From: Mobula birostris
Lineage: Eukaryota
Length of the DNA stretch: 64,000 nucleotides
Direction of reading: 5' to 3'
Assembly: GCF_030028105.1 (NCBI RefSeq)
Contig: NC_092390.1
Span: forward strand, 37,492,777-37,556,776
The position numbers and the translations under genes are program-made. The notes under the pieces were generated by a model. The model was not told the origin of the DNA, made no database searches, and worked only from the letters and a program-made list of their open reading frames with translations. Numbering within the stretch: position 1 is the stretch's first letter; the number at the start of each line of letters is the position of its first letter. Shown one piece after another: positions 1 to 45,629 of this stretch.

Positions 1-3000
1 CCATATCCTGAAAAGGGAGGGTGAGCTGCCAGAAATCATGGTACATATAGGTACTAACGATATAGGTAGAAAAAGGGAGGAGGTCCTGAAGACAGAGTAC
101 AGGAAGTTAGGGAAGAAGCTGAGAAGCAGGAACTCAAGGGTAGTAATCTCAGGATTGCTGCCTGTGCCCCGCGACAGTGAGGATAGGAATAGAATGAGGT
201 GGCGGTTAAATGTGTGGCTGAAGGACTGGAGCAGGGGCAGGGATTCAAATTTCTGGATAATTGGGAACTCTTCTGGCGCAGGTGGGACCTGTACAAAAGG
301 GAGGGGTTGCACTTGAATCCGAGGCAGACCCATTTGCTTGTGGGCAGGTTTGCTAGAGCTGTTGGGAGTGGTTTAAGCTAATATGGCAGGGGAATGGGAA
401 CCAGTATGATGGCAAAGTAGAAGTTAAGGATTGCATTAAAGCCAAGGAAAGGGCATATAATGTAGCAAAACTGAGTAGGAAGTTGGATGATTGAGAAGCA
501 TTTAAAATCCAACAAAAGGCAAATAAAAAGAGCTGTAAGAAGGAAAAGATGAAATATGAGGGCAAACTAGCCAACAATATAAAGTAGGATACCAAAAGTT
601 TTTCAGTTATATAAAGAGTAAGAGGAAGGTGAGAGTTGATATTGGACCACTAGAATATGATGCTGGTGAGGTAGTAATGGGGGATAAAGAAGATGTAGAT
701 AAACTTAATGAGTACTTCGTATCAGTCTTCACTGTGGAAGACACTAGCAGTGTGCCAGAGGTCCATGAGTGTCAAGGAGCAAGAGTGAGTGCCATTGCTA
801 TTACAAAGGAAAAGGTGCTAGACAAACTCAAAGGTCTTAAGGTGGATAAATCACCTGGAGCACATGGACTACATCCCAGAGTCCTGAAAGAGGTTGCTGA
901 ACAGACAACAGAGCCATTGCTCATGATCTTTCAATAATCACTTGATTCTGGCTTGGTCCCAGAGGACTGGAAAATTGCAGATGTCTCTCTACTCTTTAAG
1001 AGGGGAGGAAGACAAAAGAAAGGAAATTATAGGCCAGATAGCCTAATCTCAGTGGTTGGGAAAATGTTGCAGTCCATTATTAAGGATGCAGTTTTGGGAT
1101 ACTTGGAAACTAATAATAAAATAAGCCAAAGTCAGCATGGTTTCTGTAAAGGGAAACCTTAGCTGACAAATCTGTTAAGAGTTCTGCAAGGAAGTAATAA
1201 GCAAGAGAGGTAATGGATGTTATTTACTTGGATTTTCAGAAGGCCTTTGACAAGGTGCCACACATGAAGCTACTTAACAAGATAAAATCCTATGACATTA
1301 CAGAAAAGATACTGGCATGGGCACAGGAATGGCTGACAGGCAGGAGGCAGCAAGTGGGAATAAAAGGGGTCTTTACTGGTTGGCTGTTGGTGACTAGTGG
1401 TGTTCCTTAGGGGTCAGTATTGGGATTGTTAATTTTCACATTGTTTGTTAATGATTTGGATAATGGAATTGATGGCTTTGTGCCAAAGTTTGCGGATGAT
1501 ATGAAGATAGGTGGTGGGGTAGGTAGGGCTGAGGAAACAATACGATTGCAGCAGGACTTAGCCAAATTGGAAGAACAGGCAAAAAGTGACAGCTGGAATA
1601 CAGTGTTGGGAAATGTATGATTATGCATTTTGTTAAAAGGAACAATAGTGCAGACTATTATCTAAATGGGGAGAAGGTTCAAACATCAGAGTTGCAGAGG
1701 GACTTAGGAGTCCTCGTGCAAGACTCCCAGAAGGTTCATTTATAAGTTGAGTCTGTGGTAAAGAAGGCAATGTTGGCAAATGCAATGTTGGCATTTATTT
1801 CAAGGGGAATAGAATATAAAAGCAAGGAGATAATGCTGAGCCTTTATAAGACACTAGTCAGACGGCACTTGGAGTATTGTCAACATTGGGAGGAGGAGAA
1901 GATGGCGACGCGACGCAGCTTGCGCAGCCACTCCGGTGAATGATATCTGTAATCTGTCAAGTAGGGTGCCGTGCACAATTCTGATTTGATAGAGACAGAC
2001 GTGAGAGAACGGAGGAACATCTGGAGAAACTTCTGAAATGCCTTTTTTGCTGCCACTTTTACTGTGTGATCCTGAATCTCCGGAGGGGAAGGCCCCGAAT
2101 CCTTGGCTTTGCTTGTTGCTCGGTGGCTGGGACAGGGTCGAAGCTCTCAGCAGAGATGGTGCTTGGTGCTTGGTGTCGAAGGGCTGGTCGGAGTCTCGAA
2201 GTTTCTGGACGGACTCAGAGTCGGTTGGAGTTGAGTGCGTCCGATGCATTGACAGTTGTTGGTGCCTGAAGATTTATGGCAGAGAGTTTCTCCCTTCTGC
2301 CGCCTACTATCGTGGACTATCGGGAGTCGATCAGAACTTTGAGATTTTTTTTTACTGTTCCCATGGTCTGTTCTTTATCAAATTATGGTATTGCTTGCAC
2401 TGCTGTAACTATATATTATAATTATGTGGTTTTGTCAGTGTTAGTCTTTGGTTTGTCCTTTTTTTTTGTGATATCACTCTGGAGGAACATTGTATCATTT
2501 CTTAATGCATGCATGCATTTCTAAATGACAATAAATTAGGACTGAGTGTCCTCATAATCTAATCTAATTTTTGGCTCCCATATCTCAGAAAGGATGTGTT
2601 GTCATTGGAGAGAGACCAGAGGAAGTTCACAAGGATTGTTCTGGGAATGAAGGGGCTAATATGAGAAGCGGTTGGCAGCTTTAAGCCTGTACTCACCAGA
2701 ATTTAGAAGAATGCAGGGGGATCTCATTGAAACCTATCGAATGTTGAAAGGACTAGATAAGGTGGATGTGGAGAGGATGTTTCCTATGGTGGGGGTATCC
2801 AGAACTAGAGAGCACAGCCTCAAAATTGAGGAACGATCTTTTAGAATAGAGATAAGGTGGATTTTTTTAGTCAGACTAGTGAATCTGTGGAATGCTCTGC
2901 CACAGACTGCGATGGAGGCCACGTCCGTGGGTGTACTTGAAGTGGAAATTAGTTTCCTGATTGGTCAGGGCATCAAAGGATATGGCAAGAAGGCTGGTTT

Positions 3001-3095
3001 ATAGGGTTGAGTGGGATCCAGGATCAGCCATGATGGAATAGTGGAGCAGACTTGATGGATTGAATGGCCTAATTCTGCTCCTATGTCTTATGGTC
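1..3095 (+). mobile_element. CR1 LINE, degenerate and internally deleted (ORF1 esterase end, ORF2 RT, 3' end), interrupted at ~1888-2566
   Basis: VHIGTNDIG...VVISGLLPVP (SGNH/GDSL-like ORF1); KSPG-GLHPRVLKE, PEDWKIA, NYRP-SL-SVVGK, SQHGF, YLDFQKAFDKVPH, SGVP, KFADD; CR1-type 3' end aatggcctaattctgctcctatgtcttatgg. Confidence 0.95.
1888..2566 (+). mobile_element. Non-autonomous retroposon (CpG-rich head, Rex1-like 3' tail ending (AATCT)n) inserted in CR1
   Basis: Splits the CR1 coding run gagtattgtcaaca|tttttggctccca; starts gggaggaggagaagatggcg and ends aatgacaataaa...taatctaatctaa. Confidence 0.7.
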
Positions 3096-3099
3096 ATAT

Positions 3100-3592
3100 A
3101 TATTTAAATGAAAGAATAGATAAAATACTATTAATACTATTACAGTACTATAGAACTGTGCATTACTTCCTAATATTTATCGATGAAGGAATTCAGTGTG
3201 CACTGGTTGACTGTAAGTGAACAAAATCAGCATAGACACCTTGTGCAGATAATGGACTGCCTCAGACAATGCTATCATCCAAATCTTCATTTTCATTGTA
3301 ACATTCAAGATGATTGTAGATACCTTCAAATTCCTTGCAGTTCCTAAATTGGTATAGTAGTGAAACTGTTTTATTTTCACGCTCTGGCAATTTCTGGCAC
3401 CTCCAAGCCTGAGTGCTTGAAACCACAGTGAGTAAAAAGTTCCGAATTGTCTTACTGCTAACTTCTCGCAAACTATCAGTGGCAAAAATCACTGCTTTTT
3501 GAATATAAATGCACACAACTGACGCTATTTAAAAATTGTTCCGTCTAAGCACAGTGTTGTATCTAACGGCCACACAAGAGCGAGTGATTTGA
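3100..3592 (+). mobile_element. Internal fragment of the Tigger/pogo-like non-autonomous element also at 23911 and 38535
   Basis: Shares blocks (caaaaatcactgctttttgaa, tctaagcacagtgt, ttcattttcattgtaacattcaagatgattg) with 23911-25180 and with the reverse complement of 38535-39578. Confidence 0.8.
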
Positions 3593-4544
3593 TGTGGACT
3601 TTGTTTATTAGGGAAGGCAAGTGAAGCAGGTGAGGGTTGGTATTTCAAGATGTCATCACTTATCTTTATGTGTGAAGTCATCAAGCACTTCTCAGCTTCT
3701 CACAATAACAATCACAGCTAAGTCTTCTCCCTACACTTTGTCATTTGACTGGACAGACTCCTGATTCGATGAGATACTTTGAGATTCGTTAAGCAGTGCT
3801 ACATACTTTCAGGCAAGCACTTTGCAAGGGCTTCCACTCCAACAAGACTAGCCTCTCTGATCAGAGCTCCAGAATAATTTAAAGTAGCCACAAAACTCTA
3901 AGATACACTACTTTCTTTTCTAATTTAATTAAATTGAGCACTAAAGTACCACAACAAAATACATTTTAACTCATCTTAAATATTTTATTATTAATTTATT
4001 TATTCATAATGGATTTATTCATAATATTTAAGTATAAACATTTCCTAAACTCCATACATTTCCTATACATGCCACAAGGGAGAAACAAACATTCATTTTT
4101 ATTAATACCCTGCAAGCAATTCCAAACATAACAAACAAAGGCTCAAAGAAGTCAAATTTGAGACAGCGGTCAACAAGGAGTGTGAGATTAATTTTTTTTA
4201 AATCCCGTCCTTTAATCTTCTAATGTAGCTTTGTCATATTTTTAAACGTGGACTTACATTTCCTAAATACTTTCCATTCATAACACTTTAAACAATGGAA
4301 CATATTAAGTAGGTATGCGCCAGTTCATGAATGAACCGGGAAGCAATAAATAATTTGTACAGCATAAGTGTCAGGTAATAACCATTTACCAGAAGTCTAT
4401 CTTGGTATTCAACAGTTTTTCCATCATCAGATCTTCTATAACAACATCCTCAGGGTCATGGTTCACCAGAAACTTGGCCCTACCAGGCTCAGAGTCAGGT
4501 TACTCTGAGTGACTCACTTCCTGACTTCTCAAAACTTTTCATTT

Positions 4545-6090
4545 CATCAGTTTATAGAGCATGCAAACAGGTCTTTCCGCTCAAATACGAGGAAATCTGC
4601 AGATGCTGGAATTTCAAGCAACAGACATAAAAGTTGCTGGTGAACGCAGCAGGTCAGGCAGCATCTCTAGGAAGAGGTACTGTCAACGTTTCGGGTGAGA
4701 CGTCAACTGTACCTCTTCCTAGAGACGCTGCCTGGCCTGCTGCGTTCACCAACAACTTTTATGTGTGTTGTTTTCAGCCCAAATGATCTATGCCGACCAT
4801 AGCATCCTCTCTACTATTCCCAGTTGCTCAGGTTCAGCCCATAACCCTCCATGCACCCCCCACCCATGTAGCTACTCAATTGCATCTTAAATTTTGCAAT
4901 TGTTCCTTCCTTGGCCATTTCCTCTGGTAGCTCATTCCAGGTACTCACTATCCTCTCTGTAAATTTATCTCTCAGATCTCCTTTAAATGACTCCCATTTT
5001 GTTTTAATATCTGTGTCCACTTGTTTTGGACTCCCCAACTCTGGGGAAAAGACAATGATTGATGACTTTCTAGATACCCCTCATGGTTTTATAAATGTTT
5101 ACCCCTCATGTTTTTATAAATGTTTACCCCTCATTCTCCATCGTTCCAAGGAATAAAGATCCAGTGTAGCCGACCTCTCCCTGTAACTCAAGCACTCTAG
5201 TCCAGGCAACATCCTCTTAATCTCTTCTGTACTCTCTCCAGCTTCTCTCTTTCCTATAACAAGGTGACCAAACGGTACACAATACTCCAATTGCAGTCTC
5301 ACCAATGACTTACCTAACTGCAAAATACTCTACTCTTAAACTCAAGACCCTGACTAATGAAAGCTAGCATGGCTAAATGCCTTCTTTATCACCCTGTCTA
5401 CTTGAATGGTATGCACTCATACTCCCAGATCCCTCTGTTCCACAACACACTCCTCAGTGCCCTGCCAGTCACTGTATTGTTCATACCCTGGTTGGAATGT
5501 CCTAAATGCTTCACCTTACACTTATCCATGTTGAAATCCACTTGCCATTCCTCAGCACATTTCCCGAACATTGTAATTCACTATAACCTGCTTCACATTC
5601 AACAAGTCCCACTAATTCAGCATCATCAGCAAACTTGCAAATCACACCATGTGCATGCAATTCCAAATCATTTCCCTAAATAATGAATAACTGAGGTGCA
5701 AGAACTGACCCTGGGACATCCCACTTGTCGGAGATTTGACCTTCAACCATCACCCTCTACTTCCTATCATGGAGCCAATACCCAATCCACTTCACTAGCA
5801 TCCCTAAATCCCATGCAATCTAATCTTGTCTATCAGTTTGTTAAGCAGGACTTCTTTGACAACCTTACTAAAGTCCATATAAGGTGGCATCCATTGCCCT
5901 ACTTTCATCAAACCTCTCGGCAACTTCTTCAAAAACTCAAAAAAATTCATTAGCCAACCTCCCATGCACAAAACTATGTTGATCATTCCTGATCTAGCCT
6001 TGACTTTCCAAGTAATTGAAGATCCTGTCCTTCAGAATTCCTTCTACTAACTTCCTACAATGATGTCAGGCTCACCAGCCTTTAGTTCCT
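4545..6090 (-). mobile_element. Old CR1 LINE fragment
   Basis: Minus-strand ORF pieces LVRLQLEYC, YMDFSKV, WNELPEE; CR1-type 3' end near 4550. Confidence 0.85.
4583..4772. mobile_element. Penelope-like pLTR-derived palindromic insertion
   Basis: acataaaagttgctggtgaacgcagcagg...aggaagaggtac followed by its own reverse complement; same family as 24117-24737 and 37676-37759. Confidence 0.8.
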
Positions 6091-8210
6091 TCAAGGTATT
6101 CCTTTGTCTGGATGAGTACAGTGTCAACAATGCTCAAAAAGCTCCACCCTCACATGAGACAAAGTGAACCATTTGATCAGCACTCAGTTCAAAATCCCCA
6201 AGGCTCTCTTGCTGTCTGTCAGTATAATGCTATTGCATTCTGGGTGCACCACTTCGGCAATCCAAGGGTTCTCAAGTAGATCTTCCCAAGCACACAAGTT
6301 TTATCACATAGGAAGGCAAACACATGGGCACAATGTAACCTCCAACTTGCAAACATTCCTGATTTGAAATTGTCCCTTTACTGTCATGGAAGCAAAATAT
6401 TGGTGTCCATCTGAGCAGCAGAGAGGAAGTACATTTTATTATATAGAGTGCAGCAGCCCACGAAGGCAGCTTGGCACAGGCAACTTCTCAGGGGCAATTA
6501 GGGTAGTAAATGCTGAACTTGGTAGCAGCATCCATGTCTCTTGAATATAAAAACTTCTGCAATGTGACCCGATTGATCGTCAGTGCACAGACATCCATTC
6601 TATGCAGAAAGGGCCAGTCAGCAAAACATAGTAACTGATCTTTGTTTCATACCCCCACTCATACTGAAAACTGCCTGTGATAGTTAATACTTTATGCTGC
6701 CTTACTGGGATTTTAATTAAGATGAAGTCAAGTTTCAGGAATGACAAATGCCTATTTGCAAAACATACAATAAGCAGTCTATTCGTTAATAAATGGCAGG
6801 AGTTGCATGGATTTCCAGTTTTTATATTTTATTAATAATAACATACATTAACAATAAAAATTGAATGCCTTTTTTCATAAGTCGATGTACAGCAATTGAA
6901 AACAGCTTTGCCTAAAAGGCTCAATAAATAACTAGTTGAAATTCACAAAGAGTTTGCACTACTGTACAGACATGATTAGAGCCTTCTTTTGGGAGAAACA
7001 TAATGCTTGCAAAGCAGAGAGCATGTGGTCTACAGTGAATTACAGGCAAGTTGCAACATTAAGTTAGTTTGAATGCTACATTCATTTCAATAAAGAAAGG
7101 TTCCTCACATGCATAGGTATCAAGAATAATACTTAAAGCATATCCGAAGTATTATGATAACATTTGAAAAAAAAGAATGATTGCATTTAAATAACTTTCA
7201 CCATTTTGGAATATATCCAAAGTGTATTAGGGTAATTGAAATACTTTTGAAGCACAGTCAAGCAAGGGCTCAACAAATAATAATTTGATAACAACCACAT
7301 TAATTCAGAAAACTGAAGAATTCACAGACTGATAAAGAATGAGTACTGGGTGACATTAATCATAAAAAAAAAATCAGAAGTGGCTGGATAAATCGGAAAG
7401 ATTAATAAGTTTCATTACAAAGTAGATAATTGGCTCATGTATACTGAGCTATTGGAACAGTACTTTGAAGCAAATTAAATAACCAATGAGAAACAAGTAG
7501 TAATTTTGCTAAGTGCATTCGGGTTAAAGGCATACAGTTTGCTTCAAAGTTTAACTGCTTCAACCAAACCATCAGAAATTAGCTTTGCAGCTAGTATAAA
7601 AGTGTTGCAGGAACACTTAGAACCCAAGCCATTGTCGATTGCAGAATGCCTCAGGTTTCATAAGTAGAAATAAAAAGTAGGGGAGTCCATTTCAGTAAAC
7701 ATGGCTGAATTGAAGAGATTGCCTGAGCATTTTCAGATTGGTGAAGGGCTTAATGATGCACTAAGGGATCATTTAGTTTCTGGACTCTTACAAGAAAGCA
7801 TTCAAAATCAGCTCCTAACAGAAGCACAGCTTAAATTCAAACGAGCAGTGGAAAACACTGTTTCAATGGAAACCGCAGAGAAGCAATTGAGTTGCAGTCA
7901 GAAATGAAAGTATGCATGAATAAAACTGCAATGTCTAAACAGAAACTGGCCTGGCTGACAAATTGTGTTACTATTGTTACAGGGGCTCATGAACACCGAA
8001 CAAATGCGGATTTAAAGGTGAGATTTGCAGAAAATTCAACAAGTAGAACACATACAGAGACTATACTGGGAAGACGAAAATAAATGGACTACACAGGGAA
8101 GAGAAAAAGATAAAAGTTCAAGTTGCACTTTCAGAAAGAGCACTAATCTGCACGCTGGTAATGAAAAATCTGATAATGATGACAGTGACACAGAATTGTA
8201 TAGCCTAGAA

Positions 8211-8988
8211 CAGCGGTACCCAACCACCGGGCCGCAAAGCATGTGCTACCGGGCCATGAGGAAACGATACGAGTCAGCTGGACCTTTCCTCATTCCCTGT
8301 CATGCACTGTTGAACTTGAACATAGGGTTGCCAACTGTCCCATATTTGCAGGGACATCCCGTATATTGGGCTAAATTGGTTTGTCCCATATGGGACCGCC
8401 CTTGTCCCATATTTCCCCCGCTAAGGTAGAGCGTTCCTATGAAACCTTTCATGCTGAAATGGCATAAAGTGAAGAAGCAATTACCATTTACTTATATGGA
8501 AAAAATTTTTGAGCGTTCCCAGACCCAAAAAAACAACCTACCAAATCATAACAAATAACACATAAAACCGAAAATAAGTAACACTAACATATAGTAAAAG
8601 CAGAAATGATATGATAAATACACAGCCTATATAAAGTAGAAATAATGTATGTACAGTATTGAAAGCAAAACCGATTTGTGGGGAAAAAAATCGGCACATA
8701 CGCGCATGCACACATCACATGCGCAAGTCACGCATGCGCACACAGGTGCCCACACAAGGCTTCATGGTCATGGTAGTCTTTCCTGGGACAAACACAAGTG
8801 TCCTGGGATTTGACTGTTACTTTTGTCCCTTATTTGGGAGTGAGAAAGTTGGCAACCCTAACTGTAAAAGACATGTTGAGGTGAGTTTAACCCTACTTGA
8901 ACACCCCACCCCCCACCAGTCGGCCGGTCCGCAAGAATATTGTCAATATTAAGCCGGTCCGCGGTGCAAAAACGGTTGGGGACCCCTG
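8211..8988. mobile_element. hAT (Charlie-like) non-autonomous DNA element
   Basis: TIRs cagcggtacccaacc / ggttggggacccctg; perfect 8-bp TSD gcctagaa at 8203-8210 and 8989-8996. Confidence 0.9.
8323..8895. mobile_element. Second hAT element (TAGGG termini) nested in the first
   Basis: tagggttgccaact at 8323 and its perfect inverse agttggcaacccta at 8847-8860; 8-bp TSD cttgaaca at 8315-8322 and 8896-8903. Confidence 0.8.
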
Positions 8989-9359
8989 GCCTAGAACTCA
9001 TTCCACAACATGAGTTTGAACAGCATTTCAAAGATACCAAACTGAAGCCTGCAGATATCCAACTAAGAACTTACACTAGAGAAAAGATAACTCCTATGGG
9101 AATGATTCATAACAGTAAAACGGAACAAGAAACAAGCCACATTGAGCTTGTATGTGGTAAAAACAGGAAGACCAGCATTGTAGGGACCTGAATGGCTGAG
9201 ACATCTACAACTTGATAGGAGGTGCATCCACCAATTGCATGCCACATCCCCGGCAATGAAGCTAACTGAAAGAGAATTAAGGAAGTACTGGATGATGCCA
9301 AAACTGTTTCCATGCTGACCACACTGAACTGTTCTCCAACAGAGGACAAACAGCGGTAG

Positions 9360-10018
9360 GTGCCAGCCTCTGAGCCTCTGGTTGGAAAGCATATTGGACC
9401 AAGGAAGGACCATGTTGATCAGAAGATTTGTGAAAGTGGAGAAGTCAGCGGGCCAACTACAACAGTTTTCATAGGCAATATATCTGAGAAAGCTTCTGAT
9501 ATGTTAATCATGCAGTTACATACAAAATGTGGCTTGTTTTAAGTTGGAAGAGTATTCAAGGAGGTTCAGGAAAGTTGCACGCATTCCACTTTTGTGAGTA
9601 TAAAGAACCAAAATCTATTCTGTGTGCATGAAGGTTATTGCATGAACTTCATCAGGGAGACAAAAAGCTGCTTGTAAAAGTAGATGCAAAGACCAAAGCC
9701 CAGCTGGATGAATGGAAGGCCAAGAAGAAAGGAGTCAATGGAGATATGAAAACAGAGGTTTTTATCAGATGATGCTGCAGATGGGGTAACCAAGAGGAGA
9801 GATCAGATCATAAAGTGAGAAATAGACAAAATAATAAGAGAATACTCCAATGAACTGAATGCACCTGCCCAAGATCCGGATGCACAAATAGAAACAAAAA
9901 GGAGGGAAGAGATAGAAAGAAAGAATGTGAATGAGAAAGAGACTGGTGTGAAAGAGAGAAGGAATGTGAGAAAAAAAAGGATTCAAAGTAGATCCAGAGA
10001 GAGAAAAGATGAAGAAAG
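9360..10018 (+). pseudogene. RBM25: Processed (intronless) RBM25 fragment inside the Gypsy element: RRM, linker and part of the RE/RD-rich region
   Basis: Across two frameshifts: VGKHIGPRKDH...GPTTTVFIGNISEKASDMLIMQLHTKCGL / LSWKSIQGGSGKLHAFHFCEYKEPKSILCA*RLLHELHQGDKKLLVKVDAKTKAQLDEWKAKKK / TKRRDQIIK*EIDKIIREYSNELNAP, collinear with vertebrate RBM25 as I recall it; contains stops and frameshifts, no introns. Confidence 0.92.
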
Positions 10019-10420
10019 ATGTCCCTAGCTGTTAGATGACTTTCTGTTTTCTCAGAGTCAACTCCCACAACTATCACAGAGGGGGTCCTAGAATATGAGA
10101 TTGTTTCACAGCCACAAGCCTCACCTGCCAAGCAGAGTGATCTCCCTTGTCAGGAAAGATGTTATCCCACAAGAGTAAGACATCCTCAACAGCAATTAAA
10201 TCTTTAGGCCTGAATGGGACAATTTAAAATTTACTATGCTGTGGATGCCTGCAAATAGTAGTTGTTTTATATAGTTGAGATGCATTCTCTATTGAATTGG
10301 AGTTTATAGCTAAGTGGGGAGGAGTGTTGTATTAGTAATATTTTAATAATTTGAGTAATCTTGTATGTATATTATTTGATTAAGGATTCTTGTTCATGTA
10401 AATAATTATGGATTATATGC

Positions 10421-10980
10421 CTTTTGGTGACATCCGTTAGTCTTGCAAGACCATGGATCTGCGCCTGGATTTCCCCAGGGCACAGGCCTGGGCAAGGTTG
10501 TATGGAAGACCGGCAGTTGCCCCTGCAGCAAGTCTCCCCTCTCCACGACATCGATGTTGTCCAAGGGAAGGGCAACAGCCAATACAGCTTGGCACCGGTG
10601 TCATCGCGGGAGTTGGCAAAACGAGGTTGACTCCAGCTCCAGGTTTGTCCTCAGGGTTCACCCCCAAAGCCTTTCCCATGAGTGGGTATGGCCGCAAGGC
10701 AGCGGAGGGTTCAAATCAGAGTTTTCCCTCCCTTAAATGGACTGCCTTCCCAGGCTGACGAACTCCACCTACCCAAAGCACTGGTTTTAAGGAGCCAGGA
10801 CCCACCTTTGCCCCTTCTCCTATCAGTAGAAACAGTTCCACCGGGCTTAGAGGCTAAGCCACACAAGAAGGCCAGGAGTTGGACTTGGTTGTAGGAGGCT
10901 AGTTGAGGCGTGTGCCATGAGGAGCACTTTTAGGTAATGGGAGCTTGTCCCCATTACCACACCTCGGCTTGACAACCTTG
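10421..10980 (-). mobile_element. Non-autonomous RTE-clade-derived retroposon inserted in the Gypsy 3' LTR
   Basis: GC-rich block interrupting the AT-rich LTR; minus strand has the RTE 5'UTR-like motif ggcagtccatttaagggagggaaaactctgatttgaacc; no credible ORF. Confidence 0.6.
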
Positions 10981-12192
10981 TAAACATATGTTAATTGCAT
11001 CACTTGATATGTGCATGTCTCACTTACAGTAAACTCGAACTACACCCATATTTTCAGACTCCTGTGAGTTTCTTTGAATTACTTTAATGTTTTGAAGTTA
11101 CAAAACAGAACAATGTTCGCCTGAGTCTGGGCAATCTCTCCTTTGAATACAGGCATTTGACAGTTCAGCACTCCCTGAATCCAAAATACACAAATCTGCT
11201 TTTTGTAGTTCTTTCTAAAATAAGTGTGAAATGCATCTCAATATGCACATTTAAAATCAACATAACTGAGCCTTACTGTATTAGAAAGGTCTGAAACAAA
11301 AACACCACATAAGGATACAACTGAAACAATTTTAGCTCAACAAGATATGATCCAGAAGACACTGCCTGAAAAGTGTGGTAAAATCAGATTAAAAGGTAAC
11401 CACTTCTCAAGAGAATGGAGAATAGGTGGAGTATGTCAATGGAAATAAAATCTAGGCAGTGGAATGAAAAGAGGAATAGAAATATTAGCTGCAGTTCCAC
11501 TAGAACTGGGCTGAGCTATGCTGTATGATTCAATACACCACCGGGGTCTGAGGTATGCAATTTAAAATAATTTAACTAGAGTATCAGCACTAACATGCAG
11601 AAATCCAAAATTATGAAAATATGTAGATCTGTCAATGGCCACTGGACTTCAGTTGACCTACCCGTTGTTACAATTCCTTCTCACTGGCCCCTTCTTGCTT
11701 TCTTTAAGCACACACAAATTATCTGGCATTTTTTTTAAACAAGGTGACCTTTTGTAAGGAATCAGTTCTATCTTGGGACACAAACTGAAACTGAAAGGAG
11801 GAATCATCCATTTAAGTTCAAGGCCTCAATTAAAGTTCACAATACCCAATGCCAATGGGGACAACGTAGAAGGAGGCTGGTGGCAATGGGAGAAATTTTA
11901 TTTACTTTATTTAGATGAGAATGACATTGGCTGCCTTTTCTCATTGATGTATCTGGGAATAAATGGCTCAGTCAAAATGATTTGAATGACATCAACAGAT
12001 CATATTCATTCATATTGGGAATCCACGTAAAGTTAAAATTATAAAATCAAAAAATAAATAGGAATACATCTTCCCTTGTTACTTTTCAAAGACTCTGCAA
12101 TCAGCATTGAAAGTTATGGAGTCATGGATCCTTTGTTAAATCAATATGATGCAGGACCCAGCACCTGATTGCCTTGTGTCAATGCACAATAC

Positions 12193-42270: not shown

Positions 42271-43663
42271 AGTTTTAGCTTTTTAATTTATTTTTCTCAT
42301 TCATCTTCTTCTTCGTCTTCATGTGCCTTGCGCGTTACACGCTTGGGCGATCATGGCTTTTCACATCGAACGATCCCATGCAGCGTCAATAATATCTCAC
42401 ACACTTAGATCTGTTAGTTCTTTCACAGTGTCCATATATTTTCTTCTTTGCCTTCCTCTTCCATGTTTCCCAGGCATATGCCTTTGTAATGTAAGGCATT
42501 CTATTTCTCCCTTTCTGATGACATGGCCCAGGAATTTAAGTTTCTTCTCATCTTAATGTTCTCATTAAAGATATTTTTTTATGGGCACATTGGAGTACTG
42601 TCTCATTAGTTATCCTATCTCTATATGATATTTTCAGCATTCTTCTAAGAAACCATATTTCTGTTGTTTCTAAGTTTCTTTGGAGTTCTGGTGTTATAGT
42701 CCATGTTTCAGAAGCATACAGCAAGATTGACCAGATGTAACATTTTAGTAGCCTAAGCTTTGTTATAGTAATGTGTCTGTTGGTAAAAATGGGTTTCATT
42801 TTTTGGAAGTTAGTTTTGGCAATAGCAATTCTTCTTTTTATTTCTACTTTGCTTCTAAAATCTTGTGATATAAAGCTACCAAGGTAATTAAAGCTGATCT
42901 TTTGTTCAATCTCTTGATTACCGACGTACAATTGGCAGTTGGGAGTATCCTGATGTTTTGATATTTTTTTACAGTTGATGGTTAGACCAAAATCTGCACT
43001 TGTTTGTACTACTTTGTCAAGGAGGATTTGTAGGTTTCCTGCAGCATTTGCTATTAGGGTGGTATCATCTGCATATCTTATATTGTTGATGTTAACACCT
43101 CCAATTTTTATCCCATCTAGGTGTCCTATTTCTCTGAGAATCATTTCACTATAGATATTAAACAATTCTGGTGAGGCAACGCATCCCTGTCTAACTCCTC
43201 TTTGGATTTTAGTCCAACTGCTTATATTATCATCAATTTTTACCGTTGTCATTTGGTTCCAATATAAAGTTTGAAGCAGTTGTTGGTCCCTTCCATCCAT
43301 GTTTAGTTTAGCGAGAATTTGAAATAATTTTTCATGTTGCACTTTGTCAAATGCTTTAGTGAAATCAATAAAACATAAAAAGACATCATTTTGATATTCA
43401 ATTGCTCTTTCTGAAAGCAATCATATTATGAAAATTGCATTCATAGTTCCTTTATCCTCAATAAACCCATATTGTAGTTTAGAAGTTTCTGGCCTTAACT
43501 TGTTTTTAATTCGACTCAGAACAATTCTCAACAAAACCTTTATTATGCGACTCATAAGACTGATTGTTCTATAATATAAAATACTCTGCAGATGCTGGGG
43601 TCAAAGCAGCACTCTCCATACGCTGGAGGAACTCAGCAGGTCGGGCAGCATCCATGGAAACGA

Positions 43664-43703
43664 TCAGTCAACGTTTCGGGCCGGAACCCTTCGTCAGGAC
43701 TGA
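43664..43703 (-). ncRNA. Minimal type I hammerhead ribozyme motif
   Basis: TCAGTC-CTGACGA-A-GGG-TTCCGG-CCC-GAAA-CGTT-GACTGA: conserved core CUGANGA/GAAA, helix I TCAGTC:GACTGA, helix II GGG:CCC, palindromic ACGT in place of helix III. Confidence 0.75.
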
Positions 43704-44457
43704 AGAGGGAAGGGGCAGAGGCCCTATAAAGAAGGTGGGAGGAGGGTGGGAAGGAGAAGGCTGGTAGGTTCCAAGTGAAAAACCAGTAAGGGGAAAGATA
43801 AAGGGGTGAGGGAGGGGAAGCAGGGAGGTGATAGGCAGGAAAGGTGAAGAAGGAATAGGGGAAAACACAAAGGGTAGTAGAAGGAGGCGGAACCATGACG
43901 GAGGTGATAGGCAGCTGGGGGAGGGGGCAGAGTGAAATAGGGATAGAGGATGGGAGGGGGAGGGAATTACCGGAAGCTGGAGAATTCTATGTTCATACCA
44001 AGGGGCTGGAGACTACCTAGACGGTATATGAGGTGTTGCTCCTCCAACCTGAGTTTAGCCTCATCATGGCAGTAGAGGAGGCCATGTATGGACATATCCG
44101 AATGGGAATGGGAAGCAGAGTTGAAGTGGGTGGCAACCGGGAGATCCTGTCTGTTCTGGCGGACAGAGCGGAGGTGCTCAACGAAGCGGTCCCCCAATCT
44201 GCGTCGGGTTTCAATGATGTAGAGGAGGCCGCACTGGGAGCACCGGATGCAATAGATGACCCTCATGGTTCTGCCTCCTTCTACTATCCATTGCGTTTTC
44301 CCCTATTCTTTCTTCACCTTTCCTGCCTATCACCTCCCTGCTTCCCCTCCCCCACCCCTTTATCTTTCCCCTTACTGGTTTTTCACCTGGAACCTACCAG
44401 CCTTCTCCTTCCCACCCTCCCCCCACCTTCTTTATAGGGCCTTTGTCCCTTCCCTCT

Positions 44458-44497
44458 TCAGTCCTGATGAAGGGTCTCGGCCCGAAACGTTGACTGA
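44458..44497 (+). ncRNA. Minimal type I hammerhead ribozyme motif
   Basis: TCAGTC-CTGATGA-A-GGG-TCTCGG-CCC-GAAA-CGTT-GACTGA. Confidence 0.75.
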
Positions 44498-45629
44498 TCA
44501 TTTCCAGAGATGCTGCCCAACCTGCTGAGTTCCTCCAGTGTGTTGCAAGTGTTGACTGTTCTATAATTTTTGCAGTCAATAGTTCCAGGAATTTTTGGCA
44601 GAGTTATAAATACTGATTTCAAGAGATTGTCAGGCAATGCACCAGACTCATATATGCCATTAAACAGTTCAAAAAAAAATCTATGCCCAGATCTTCTAGG
44701 GCTTGTATCATTTCCACTGAAATTTCATCAGGTCCAGTGGCTTTACCATGTTTCATACTTTTCATTGCTTTAGTTATTTCTTCTTTGGTCATAGGTGAGC
44801 CAGAATTAGGGTATTTAATATCTGGGGGTTCCTCTCTATTATCCTCAAACAGCTGCTCTATATACTGAATCCACCTCTCATATATTTTATCTAGATCTGT
44901 TAGTATGGATCCATCTGCTGATCTTATGCATTCTGTAGAGGAGGTTTTCTTAATTCCAGTAATTTCCTAAATTTTCTTGTGCATTTCTTTGCTGTTGTTA
45001 ACATGGTTTTCTACTTCATTGCATTTTTGATTCAGCCATTCTTCCTTTGCAATATTGCGCAATTGTCTCGTCTGTCTGTCTAAATCTCTGTATTGCACTT
45101 CATGATTCTTCACTAACCTTCTTTGTTCCATCAGATCTAGAATTTCTTGGGTAATCCACCCCTTGTTGGTGTGTTGGATTTCTTGTACTGGGATTATCTC
45201 CTCTGCTGATTGCTGTATAGCATATATAAATCTGTCCCAAATCAGTGTTGTTACATTTTCTCATTCATACCCATTCAAAATTGACAACCTTAAGTTAATG
45301 CCGAGTCTCCCTGCACAACACTTGCCGTGAAGGTTCTTCCATAACACTGAGAGGTGAGAGGTTTTAGATATTGCCCACGCAAGAATGACAGAGTAAGAAT
45401 ATTTTTCCAAAACAGGATATTGGGAGCTGATGGTAGGGACTGAGGGATGCCTAATTGTTGCAGTGCACTTTATAAACATCACAAGGTTTAAGGTGCTGGA
45501 GAACTAATCATAGATTCATAAAGACAAATAGCACAGAAACAGGCACTTTGGTCCAGCTGGCCATCAAGTACCCATCTATATTAACTGGATTTTACACCAG
45601 TTATCATATAAATGACATTTTAATCTTGG

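What the first reader, a model, noticed from the sequence alone, without database searches (positions are those of the whole stretch)
7340..11112. Gypsy LTR retrotransposon that has swapped its RT/RNaseH/integrase core for a spliced RBM25 mRNA fragment
Seen: Mag-like gag and protease (7380-9300), a ~58-bp spacer of unclear origin, ~660 bp of intronless RBM25 coding sequence in the same sense (9360-10018), then the extreme C-terminus of pol, PPT and 3' LTR. The RBM25 piece has no poly(A), no 3'UTR and no visible TSD, and several kb of pol are missing exactly where it sits. Established: LTR elements and retroviruses capture co-packaged mRNAs by template switching during reverse transcription, whereas L1-type retrocopies end in poly(A) with a TSD. 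Inference: this is a non-autonomous LTR family that transduced the RRM and part of the RE-rich region of a splicing regulator. It may have amplified that cargo genome-wide, originally as a gag-protease-RRM chimeric transcript. This copy is dead (stops, frameshifts).
Basis: partly seen in the sequence, partly recalled or inferred. Interest (0 to 1): 0.88.

Follow-up and report, generated by a model that had tools for sequence, protein, structure and literature searches.

The report
Gypsy family carrying captured RBM25 mRNA
This is one decayed copy of a jumping-gene family that swapped its copying enzymes for an intron-free piece of the host splicing gene RBM25 and now lies at more than a thousand places in this genome, likely spread with enzymes borrowed from intact relatives, a known kind of accident at an unusually large scale.

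Summary
Confirmed and extended. The insert (9296-10018) joins host RBM25 exons precisely, from the end of exon 3 to exon 10, with internal deletions. It replaces about 2.4 kb of RT/RNase H/integrase that sibling elements retain, with shared 7-nt and 9-nt words at the two junctions. The chimeric 5' junction occurs 1,183 times (control 0) against 2,561 pol-type junctions. Copies carry paired LTRs (~81% identical) and 5-bp target duplications. One reading frame runs gag-protease-RBM25. Longer exon-8-keeping copies look ancestral; shorter lineages lost the repeat-rich part, kept the RRM and swapped flanks with pol-bearing siblings. I found no sign of selection on the cargo protein (weak test) and no conserved retrogene. 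Best reading: one template-switch capture, then amplification in trans with the cargo as passenger. The mechanism is published (Tan 2016). Unchecked notes of this scan report like captures (SUDS3, myosin, USP35, EDC4) in other ray genomes; none for RBM25.

The parts
7306..7379 (+). remnant of the element's 5' leader; 5' LTR and primer-binding site are missing in this copy
   Evidence: match to copy L205 begins at 7306; no LTR-like match in window 1-7350 (score 30)
7380..8210 (+). decayed gag with two CCHC zinc knuckles, running into the start of the protease region
   Evidence: 70-80% identity to other copies; two C-x2-C-x4-H-x4-C arrays among 80 aligned copies; weak zf-CCHC in sibling L088
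8211..8988 (.). copy-specific DNA-transposon-like insert (8-bp duplication at 8203-8210 and 8989-8996; hAT-like by recall), itself holding a second inverted-repeat element
8997..9302 (+). C-terminal part of protease, linker and first codons of the RT region; about 105 nt with the catalytic codons are missing just upstream
9296..9302 (+). 5' switch point: 7-nt word shared by pol and the end of RBM25 exon 3 (one mismatch in this copy)
   Evidence: host C1:154450900-154450947, AG/GT flanks
9354..9885 (+). RBM25 exons 4, 5, 6 and most of 7 (RRM and following helix), spliced, with stops and frameshifts
9886..10018 (+). pieces of RBM25 exon 9 and the start of exon 10 left after internal deletions, ending at the 3' switch point (9-nt purine word shared with pol)
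10019..10207 (+). C-terminal tail of pol
10309..10324 (+). polypurine tract
10325..11112 (+). 3' LTR (TG...CA), split by a copy-specific repeat insert at about 10420-10980

Best explanation
This is a dead copy of a Gypsy LTR-element family in which about 2.4 kb of RT, RNase H and integrase is replaced, in frame, by spliced RBM25 mRNA, likely captured once by template switching during reverse transcription and then likely multiplied to more than a thousand copies with Pol supplied by intact siblings, the cargo most likely riding as a passenger. Shown: spliced cargo, shared junction words, copy number, LTR pairs and target duplications, pol-bearing siblings, one open frame, nested deletion lineages, haplotypes shared with siblings. 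Inferred: RT, copying from the 3' end in a particle that held host RBM25 mRNA, jumped from the pol tail to exon 10 at a 9-nt purine word and back to the element at a 7-nt word in exon 3. The product kept LTRs, PBS, PPT, gag and protease, so it could be packaged and copied in trans. Further template switches then trimmed the repeat-rich RE region and swapped flanks with helper RNAs.
For: Five exon joins are exact in 93-100 of 102 copies and none has an intron-sized insert. Junction words of 7 and 9 nt have random-breakpoint probabilities 7e-4 and 3e-5. Chimeric junction 1,183 vs control 0; exon-skipped junction 3 matches, all looking like decayed cassette junctions, which favours one capture. 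LTR pairs in 17 of 60 copies, median identity 0.81; 5-bp duplication with >=4/5 match in 6 of 16 two-LTR copies, shuffle mean 0.66, max 4. Siblings carry RVT_1, RT_RNaseH and rve. Frame: 0 stop-majority codon columns upstream vs 46 and 35 in the other frames, 0 in 194 cargo codons. Exon-8-keeping and other less-deleted copies keep host states at two cargo sites (8 of 11 and 7 of 7; 6 of 11 and 3 of 7) and mostly the pol-type upstream haplotype. Both tail haplotypes occur in pol-bearing (22 and 2 of 30) and short chimeric copies (17 and 8 of 31); linkage correlates between groups (rho 0.36, 335 pairs). Passenger reading: common cargo variants are not synonymous-enriched (35 N incl. 1 stop: 15 S; 5:1 at the higher cut-off) while gag variants are; a cargo-free integrase-deletion variant with a shared breakpoint is 5 of 30 tail-picked copies against 8 of 30 RBM25 copies; deletions fall where 8-mer repeats are dense (109 vs 2 pairs).
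Against: Trans-mobilisation and template switching are not observed directly. Only 16-17 of about 60-66 copies could be checked for both LTRs, and 10 of 16 lack a clear duplication. The selection test on the cargo has few informative sites. The RRM is kept in 63 of 68 copies while exon 8 (11 of 68) and the RE core (3 of 68) are lost, and the two largest derived types keep the original exit frame; both fit selection on the cargo as well. The gag-protease tree is star-like with 54 of 77 inner branches open, so the order of events rests on shared sites, not on a resolved tree. Both upstream haplotypes sit only ~45 nt from the 5' junction, so a second capture at the same site is not excluded.
Confidence: 0.8

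Rival explanations
1. Same origin, but the captured RBM25 piece gave the element an advantage as protein: an RRM fused behind Gag-protease at the place of RT, possibly released by the protease, would bind element RNA or act as a dominant-negative splicing regulator.
For: In-frame fusion; RRM kept in 63 of 68 copies across several deletion lineages; variants enriched in chimeric copies are synonymous-biased in gag+protease (6 N: 7 S vs 3,346: 868 rare, p 0.008; p 0.06 to 0.001 across four cut-offs), so the chimeric frame was probably translated.
Against: No synonymous excess in the cargo; of 4 codons where the commonest state differs in amino acid from the host, outgroups side with the host at 3; an in-frame join has a 1-in-3 prior; repeat density explains where deletions fall; only 20 pol copies were sampled, so 'chimera-specific' variants may come from unsampled helpers.
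Confidence: 0.1
2. Same origin, but the advantage was at RNA level: sequence of an essential host gene shielded the element from small-RNA silencing or improved RNA processing.
For: Chimeric copies are about 27-32% of the family by two counts (8 of 30; 1,183 of 3,744 junction matches); the camouflage idea is proposed for maize (PMC13317346, passages).
Against: No small-RNA or methylation data were available; cargo-free deletion variants also amplified; the family is long dead, so present silencing may not reflect the past.
Confidence: 0.07
3. An ordinary LINE-made RBM25 retrocopy inserted into an LTR element, followed by deletion of pol, or DNA-level duplication of one locus.
For: The genome is rich in LINE fragments; two look-alike pairs among the loci (L019/L024, L128/L129) show that some segmental duplication occurs.
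Against: No poly(A), 3' end or duplication around the cargo; pol is replaced, not interrupted; shared words at both ends; dispersed copies with their own target duplications.
Confidence: 0.03

Closest known systems
LTR-mediated retrocopies / pseudo-LTR retrotransposons of animals (Tan et al. 2016, PMC5131818; abstract and sections 5, 6, 9 read)
   Same: Partial spliced mRNA replaces internal ORFs, microsimilarity at switch points (their median 6 bp), no poly(A), both LTRs kept, secondary retroposition, and a recurrent switch-back site (their BLASTOPIA motif; here the purine word in the pol tail).
   Different: In the sections read, their multi-site cases amount to a few insertions; here at least 1,183 copies, with nested deletion lineages and flank exchange with helpers. 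No cartilaginous fish among their species.
Maize Bs1 (as described in PMC5131818, section 9)
   Same: Non-autonomous LTR element with captured exonic sequence and shared switch points in all copies.
   Different: One to five copies and three donor genes; here one donor gene and over a thousand copies.
Crocodilian CrocERV29 (KIT-ligand) and CrocERV31 (nectin3) captures (PMC4299795; passages)
   Same: Old vertebrate LTR retroelement lineages carrying host mRNA in several copies.
   Different: Retroviral, nine and six copies, cargo ORFs intact with purifying selection; here Gypsy-type, cargo decays neutrally (0 of 102 stop-free and in frame).
Acutely transforming retroviruses with gag-onc fusions (recalled, no call)
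   Same: Helper-dependent genome in which a host coding piece replaces pol and is fused in frame to gag.
   Different: No env and no infection here, and no evidence that the cargo was selected.

Membership tests
LTR-mediated retrocopy (Tan 2016) | Cargo is spliced host mRNA (introns precisely absent) | tested here: met
   five joins exact in 93-100 of 102 copies; host introns 1.1-6.0 kb
LTR-mediated retrocopy (Tan 2016) | Cargo replaces, not interrupts, internal element sequence | tested here: met
   2,442 nt of RT-RNase H-integrase between the junction sites in L091
LTR-mediated retrocopy (Tan 2016) | Microsimilarity at switch points | tested here: met
   7 nt and 9 nt; random P 7e-4 and 3e-5
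LTR-mediated retrocopy (Tan 2016) | No L1 hallmarks (poly(A), duplication around the cargo) | tested here: met
   cargo ends in exon 10 and joins the pol tail directly
Non-autonomous LTR retrotransposon family | Dispersed copies with two LTRs, PPT and own target-site duplication | tested here: met
   17 of 60 LTR pairs; 6 of 16 duplications vs shuffle mean 0.66
Non-autonomous LTR retrotransposon family | Mobilisation in trans by a helper | not testable with these tools
   inferred from pol-bearing siblings and shared haplotypes
Ty3/Gypsy | Domain order PR-RT-RNase H-IN and RT closest to Ty3 | tested here: met
   order across siblings L087, L088, L091, L094; best 2 of 8 PDB hits are 4ol8 and Ty3-G Gag-Pol, E 2e-13 and 1e-12
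Mag clade of Gypsy | Single gag-pol frame and two CCHC arrays (features recalled) | tested here: met
Mag clade of Gypsy | PBS complementary to tRNA-Leu or tRNA-Ser (PMC3286476, passages) | not tested
   a conserved PBS-like motif follows the 5' LTR in 9 copies shown; its match to tRNA-Ser is recalled, not checked
Mag clade of Gypsy | RT phylogeny groups with Mag | not testable with these tools
   no named Gypsy reference set was available
Functional retrogene | Intact frame and purifying selection on the cargo | tested here: not met
   0 of 102 copies stop-free and in frame; best 150 of 4,903 candidates show 61-79% identity with no outlier; rare variants neutral

The most novel reading that the evidence does not exclude
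A Gypsy element fused the RRM of an essential splicing regulator to Gag-protease in place of RT and gained from it, as an extra RNA-binding module, a dominant-negative splicing factor or camouflage against silencing, which drove it to about a third of its family; ray Gypsy elements do this repeatedly with regulators of chromatin and RNA.
Probability: 0.15. Interest if true: 0.85.

Novelty: new member of a known kind. Interest (0 to 1): 0.55.

Why it matters
It is a vertebrate gene-capture event with more than a thousand dated copies, so the steps after capture (trimming, recombination with helpers, decay) can be read directly, and selection on cargo versus gag can be tested with real power. 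It preserves an old alternative splice form of RBM25. It also warns that top 'retrocopy parent' genes in cartilaginous fishes may reflect single captures amplified as transposons, not transcript level or selective retention: a 2026 preprint lists SUDS3 among them (passages), and its filter for terminal exon junctions would miss this RBM25 family.

Tried and rejected
A PWI family search found SRRM1-like and PRPF3-like exons (names recalled), not RBM25; the parent was found with an RBM25 C-terminus. Pfam gave no hit above cut-off for the 9 window fragments. The idea that the cassette exon is an exonised repeat: no match extended into its intronic flanks among the loci held (limited sample). The idea of a conserved exit frame across deletion types: phases 40/27/23 of 90 copies, not independent, so inconclusive. 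An exapted intact copy: none stood out (only 150 of 4,903 candidates scored). Other cargo genes in this family: none recognised in 30 tail-picked and 39 junction-picked loci (judged by eye where pol similarity ended). Expression: no RNA holder listed; the contigs laid are only guessed to be RNA, so they are not used as evidence of expression. Literature: RBM25+retrotransposon gave 29 papers, 20 listed, none on this by title or abstract start; RBM25+retrocopies 0; further searches showed no description of this family; RBM25 is absent from the main text and 3 held supplements of PMC13320880; supplements of the bioRxiv retrocopy preprint were not seen and may list it; Repbase and Dfam could not be checked. 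Rows dropped before counts: L129 as a duplicate and 5 copies without a locatable junction; 80 of 177 copies passed the upstream filter and 102 of 138 the cargo filter; 29 of 89 junction-picked copies were unclassified.
Full report
Observation. The region reads as described. A DNA search with 9300-10030 gave 2,900 candidates; the 39 scored besides the window are 79-84% identical over most of the query. All 29 other loci fetched carry element sequence beside the RBM25 piece, most with gag, protease, pol tail and LTR. A natural copy's 241-residue stretch hits RBM25 proteins at E 5.7e-63.

The parent gene. An RBM25 C-terminus located the host gene on C1, plus strand. Its exons were mapped with AG/GT borders. 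The window insert aligns from the last bases of exon 3 through a 48-nt cassette exon, exons 4-6 and most of 7, then to pieces of exon 9 and the start of exon 10. The five intact exon joins are exact in 93-100 of 102 copies, and none has more than 15 nt inserted. The 'spacer' is therefore host sequence. The cassette exon is not in the three fish and frog proteins displayed. A contig of run X21 joins a different small exon to exon 4, so this part of the gene appears to be alternatively spliced if that run is RNA.

What was replaced. Of the 29 best protease matches besides the window, 19 continue into RBM25 and 10 into pol. The latter hold RVT_1, RT_RNaseH and rve, and their RT is closest to Ty3 among solved structures. 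Between the two junction sites sibling L091 has 2,442 nt. Pol and exon 3 share 7 nt at the 5' junction, in the same codon phase; pol and exon 10 share 9 nt at the 3' junction. Random breakpoints give such words with probability 7e-4 and 3e-5.

Copy number and mobility. The 21-nt chimeric junction, with up to 2 mismatches, occurs 1,183 times, reversed control 0; the pol-type junction occurs 2,561 times. The motif detects 35 of 54 cargo copies chosen without it, which suggests roughly 1,800 copies; those 54 are best scorers, so this is probably low. A tail-based sample gives 8 RBM25, 16 pol-type, 5 cargo-free integrase-deletion and 1 other of 30. LTR pairs were found in 17 of 60 copies, median identity 0.81. 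Target duplications of 5 bp matched at 4 or more positions in 6 of 16, against a shuffle mean of 0.66. Contigs bridge the 5' junction in runs labelled organism A and organism B, and a piece spans the 3' junction in organism G, so the family probably predates the split of these species; those alignments are at 80% likeness and were not inspected base by base.

Age and history. Copies differ from their column's commonest letter by a median 10.8%, and that letter differs from today's host mRNA at only 22 of 590 sites (17 synonymous and 4 non-synonymous codons of 194). Host synonymous drift since capture (17 of about 129 sites) is about the size of the decay since insertion, so amplification likely followed capture closely (inference). 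No absolute date is given. Among 89 junction-picked copies, 31 are short (ending just after exon 7), 11 keep exon 8, 10 are other deletion types, 8 are the window's type and 29 could not be classed. The exon-8-keeping and other less-deleted types retain host states at two cargo sites and mostly the upstream haplotype of pol-bearing copies, and they group weakly with pol copies in a star-like tree, so they look ancestral. Two tail haplotypes and two upstream haplotypes occur in both chimeric and pol-bearing copies, which points to repeated recombination with helper RNAs. A second capture at the same site is a less economical alternative: the exon-skipped junction is essentially absent (3 degraded matches).

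Was the cargo functional? One frame runs from a start codon column 416 codons upstream through the cargo without a stop-majority column, and several natural copies read stop-free across the junction. Rare variants are neutral everywhere (ratio 1.1-1.4 by a rough site count). Common variants are synonymous-enriched in gag of chimeric copies (p 1e-5 and 0.02 at two cut-offs) but not in the cargo (p 0.41 and 1). Variants enriched in chimeric copies are also synonymous-biased in gag+protease (p 0.06 to 0.001). So the frame was probably translated for Gag, while nothing shows selection on the RRM. The test is weak, and the RRM is kept in 63 of 68 copies while the RE core is kept in 3; repeat density (109 vs 2 repeated 8-mer pairs) offers a neutral reason. 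No intact retrogene was seen.

Comparison and novelty. The mechanism is that of Tan et al. 2016 (PMC5131818; abstract and sections 5, 6, 9), with maize Bs1 and crocodilian ERV captures (PMC4299795; passages) as relatives; those have one to nine copies in the text read. I found no paper on an RBM25-carrying element (and others), but TE databases could not be searched. A VGP retrocopy preprint (10.64898/2026.06.26.734816; passages) lists MIPOL1, SUDS3, SDF2L1, SLU7 and ZNF276 as top parents in cartilaginous fishes and explains them by formation bias and selection. Unchecked notes of this scan describe Gypsy captures of SUDS3, myosin, USP35 and EDC4 in other ray genomes; none covers this sequence. 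They did not change my reading and are not counted as support.

Verdict. Real, well supported, a new member of a known kind at unusual scale. Interest 0.55; 0.85 if the cargo proves to have been selected (probability about 0.15).

Noticed in passing
L257:1225-1254 (G000:C1, RBM25 intron 3): A second small AG/GT-flanked, 30-nt frame-preserving exon of the host gene, joined to exon 4 in one contig of run X21.
   Followed up: partly
L089, L095, L096, L278, L281, L282, L288, L296: Cargo-free derivatives that delete the integrase core and rejoin at the same purine word of the pol tail; 5 of 30 tail-picked copies, so this site is a recurrent switch point.
   Followed up: partly
window 8211-8988: DNA-transposon-like insert with 8-bp duplication and a second inverted-repeat element nested at about 8315-8862; related pieces occur in several other loci.
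   Followed up: partly
window 10420-10980: Interspersed repeat inside the 3' LTR, also found inserted in other loci such as L192 and L053; class not determined.
   Followed up: no
L067, L148, L156: Pol-bearing copies whose gag-protease falls among derived chimeric copies in the tree, possibly back-recombinants; support is weak.
   Followed up: partly
L019/L024 and L128/L129: Near-identical pairs that look like segmental duplicates or alternate assembly copies.
   Followed up: no
window 43607-44554: 295-nt inverted repeat arms, 92% complementary, 358 nt apart; probably two opposed copies of a common repeat.
   Followed up: no
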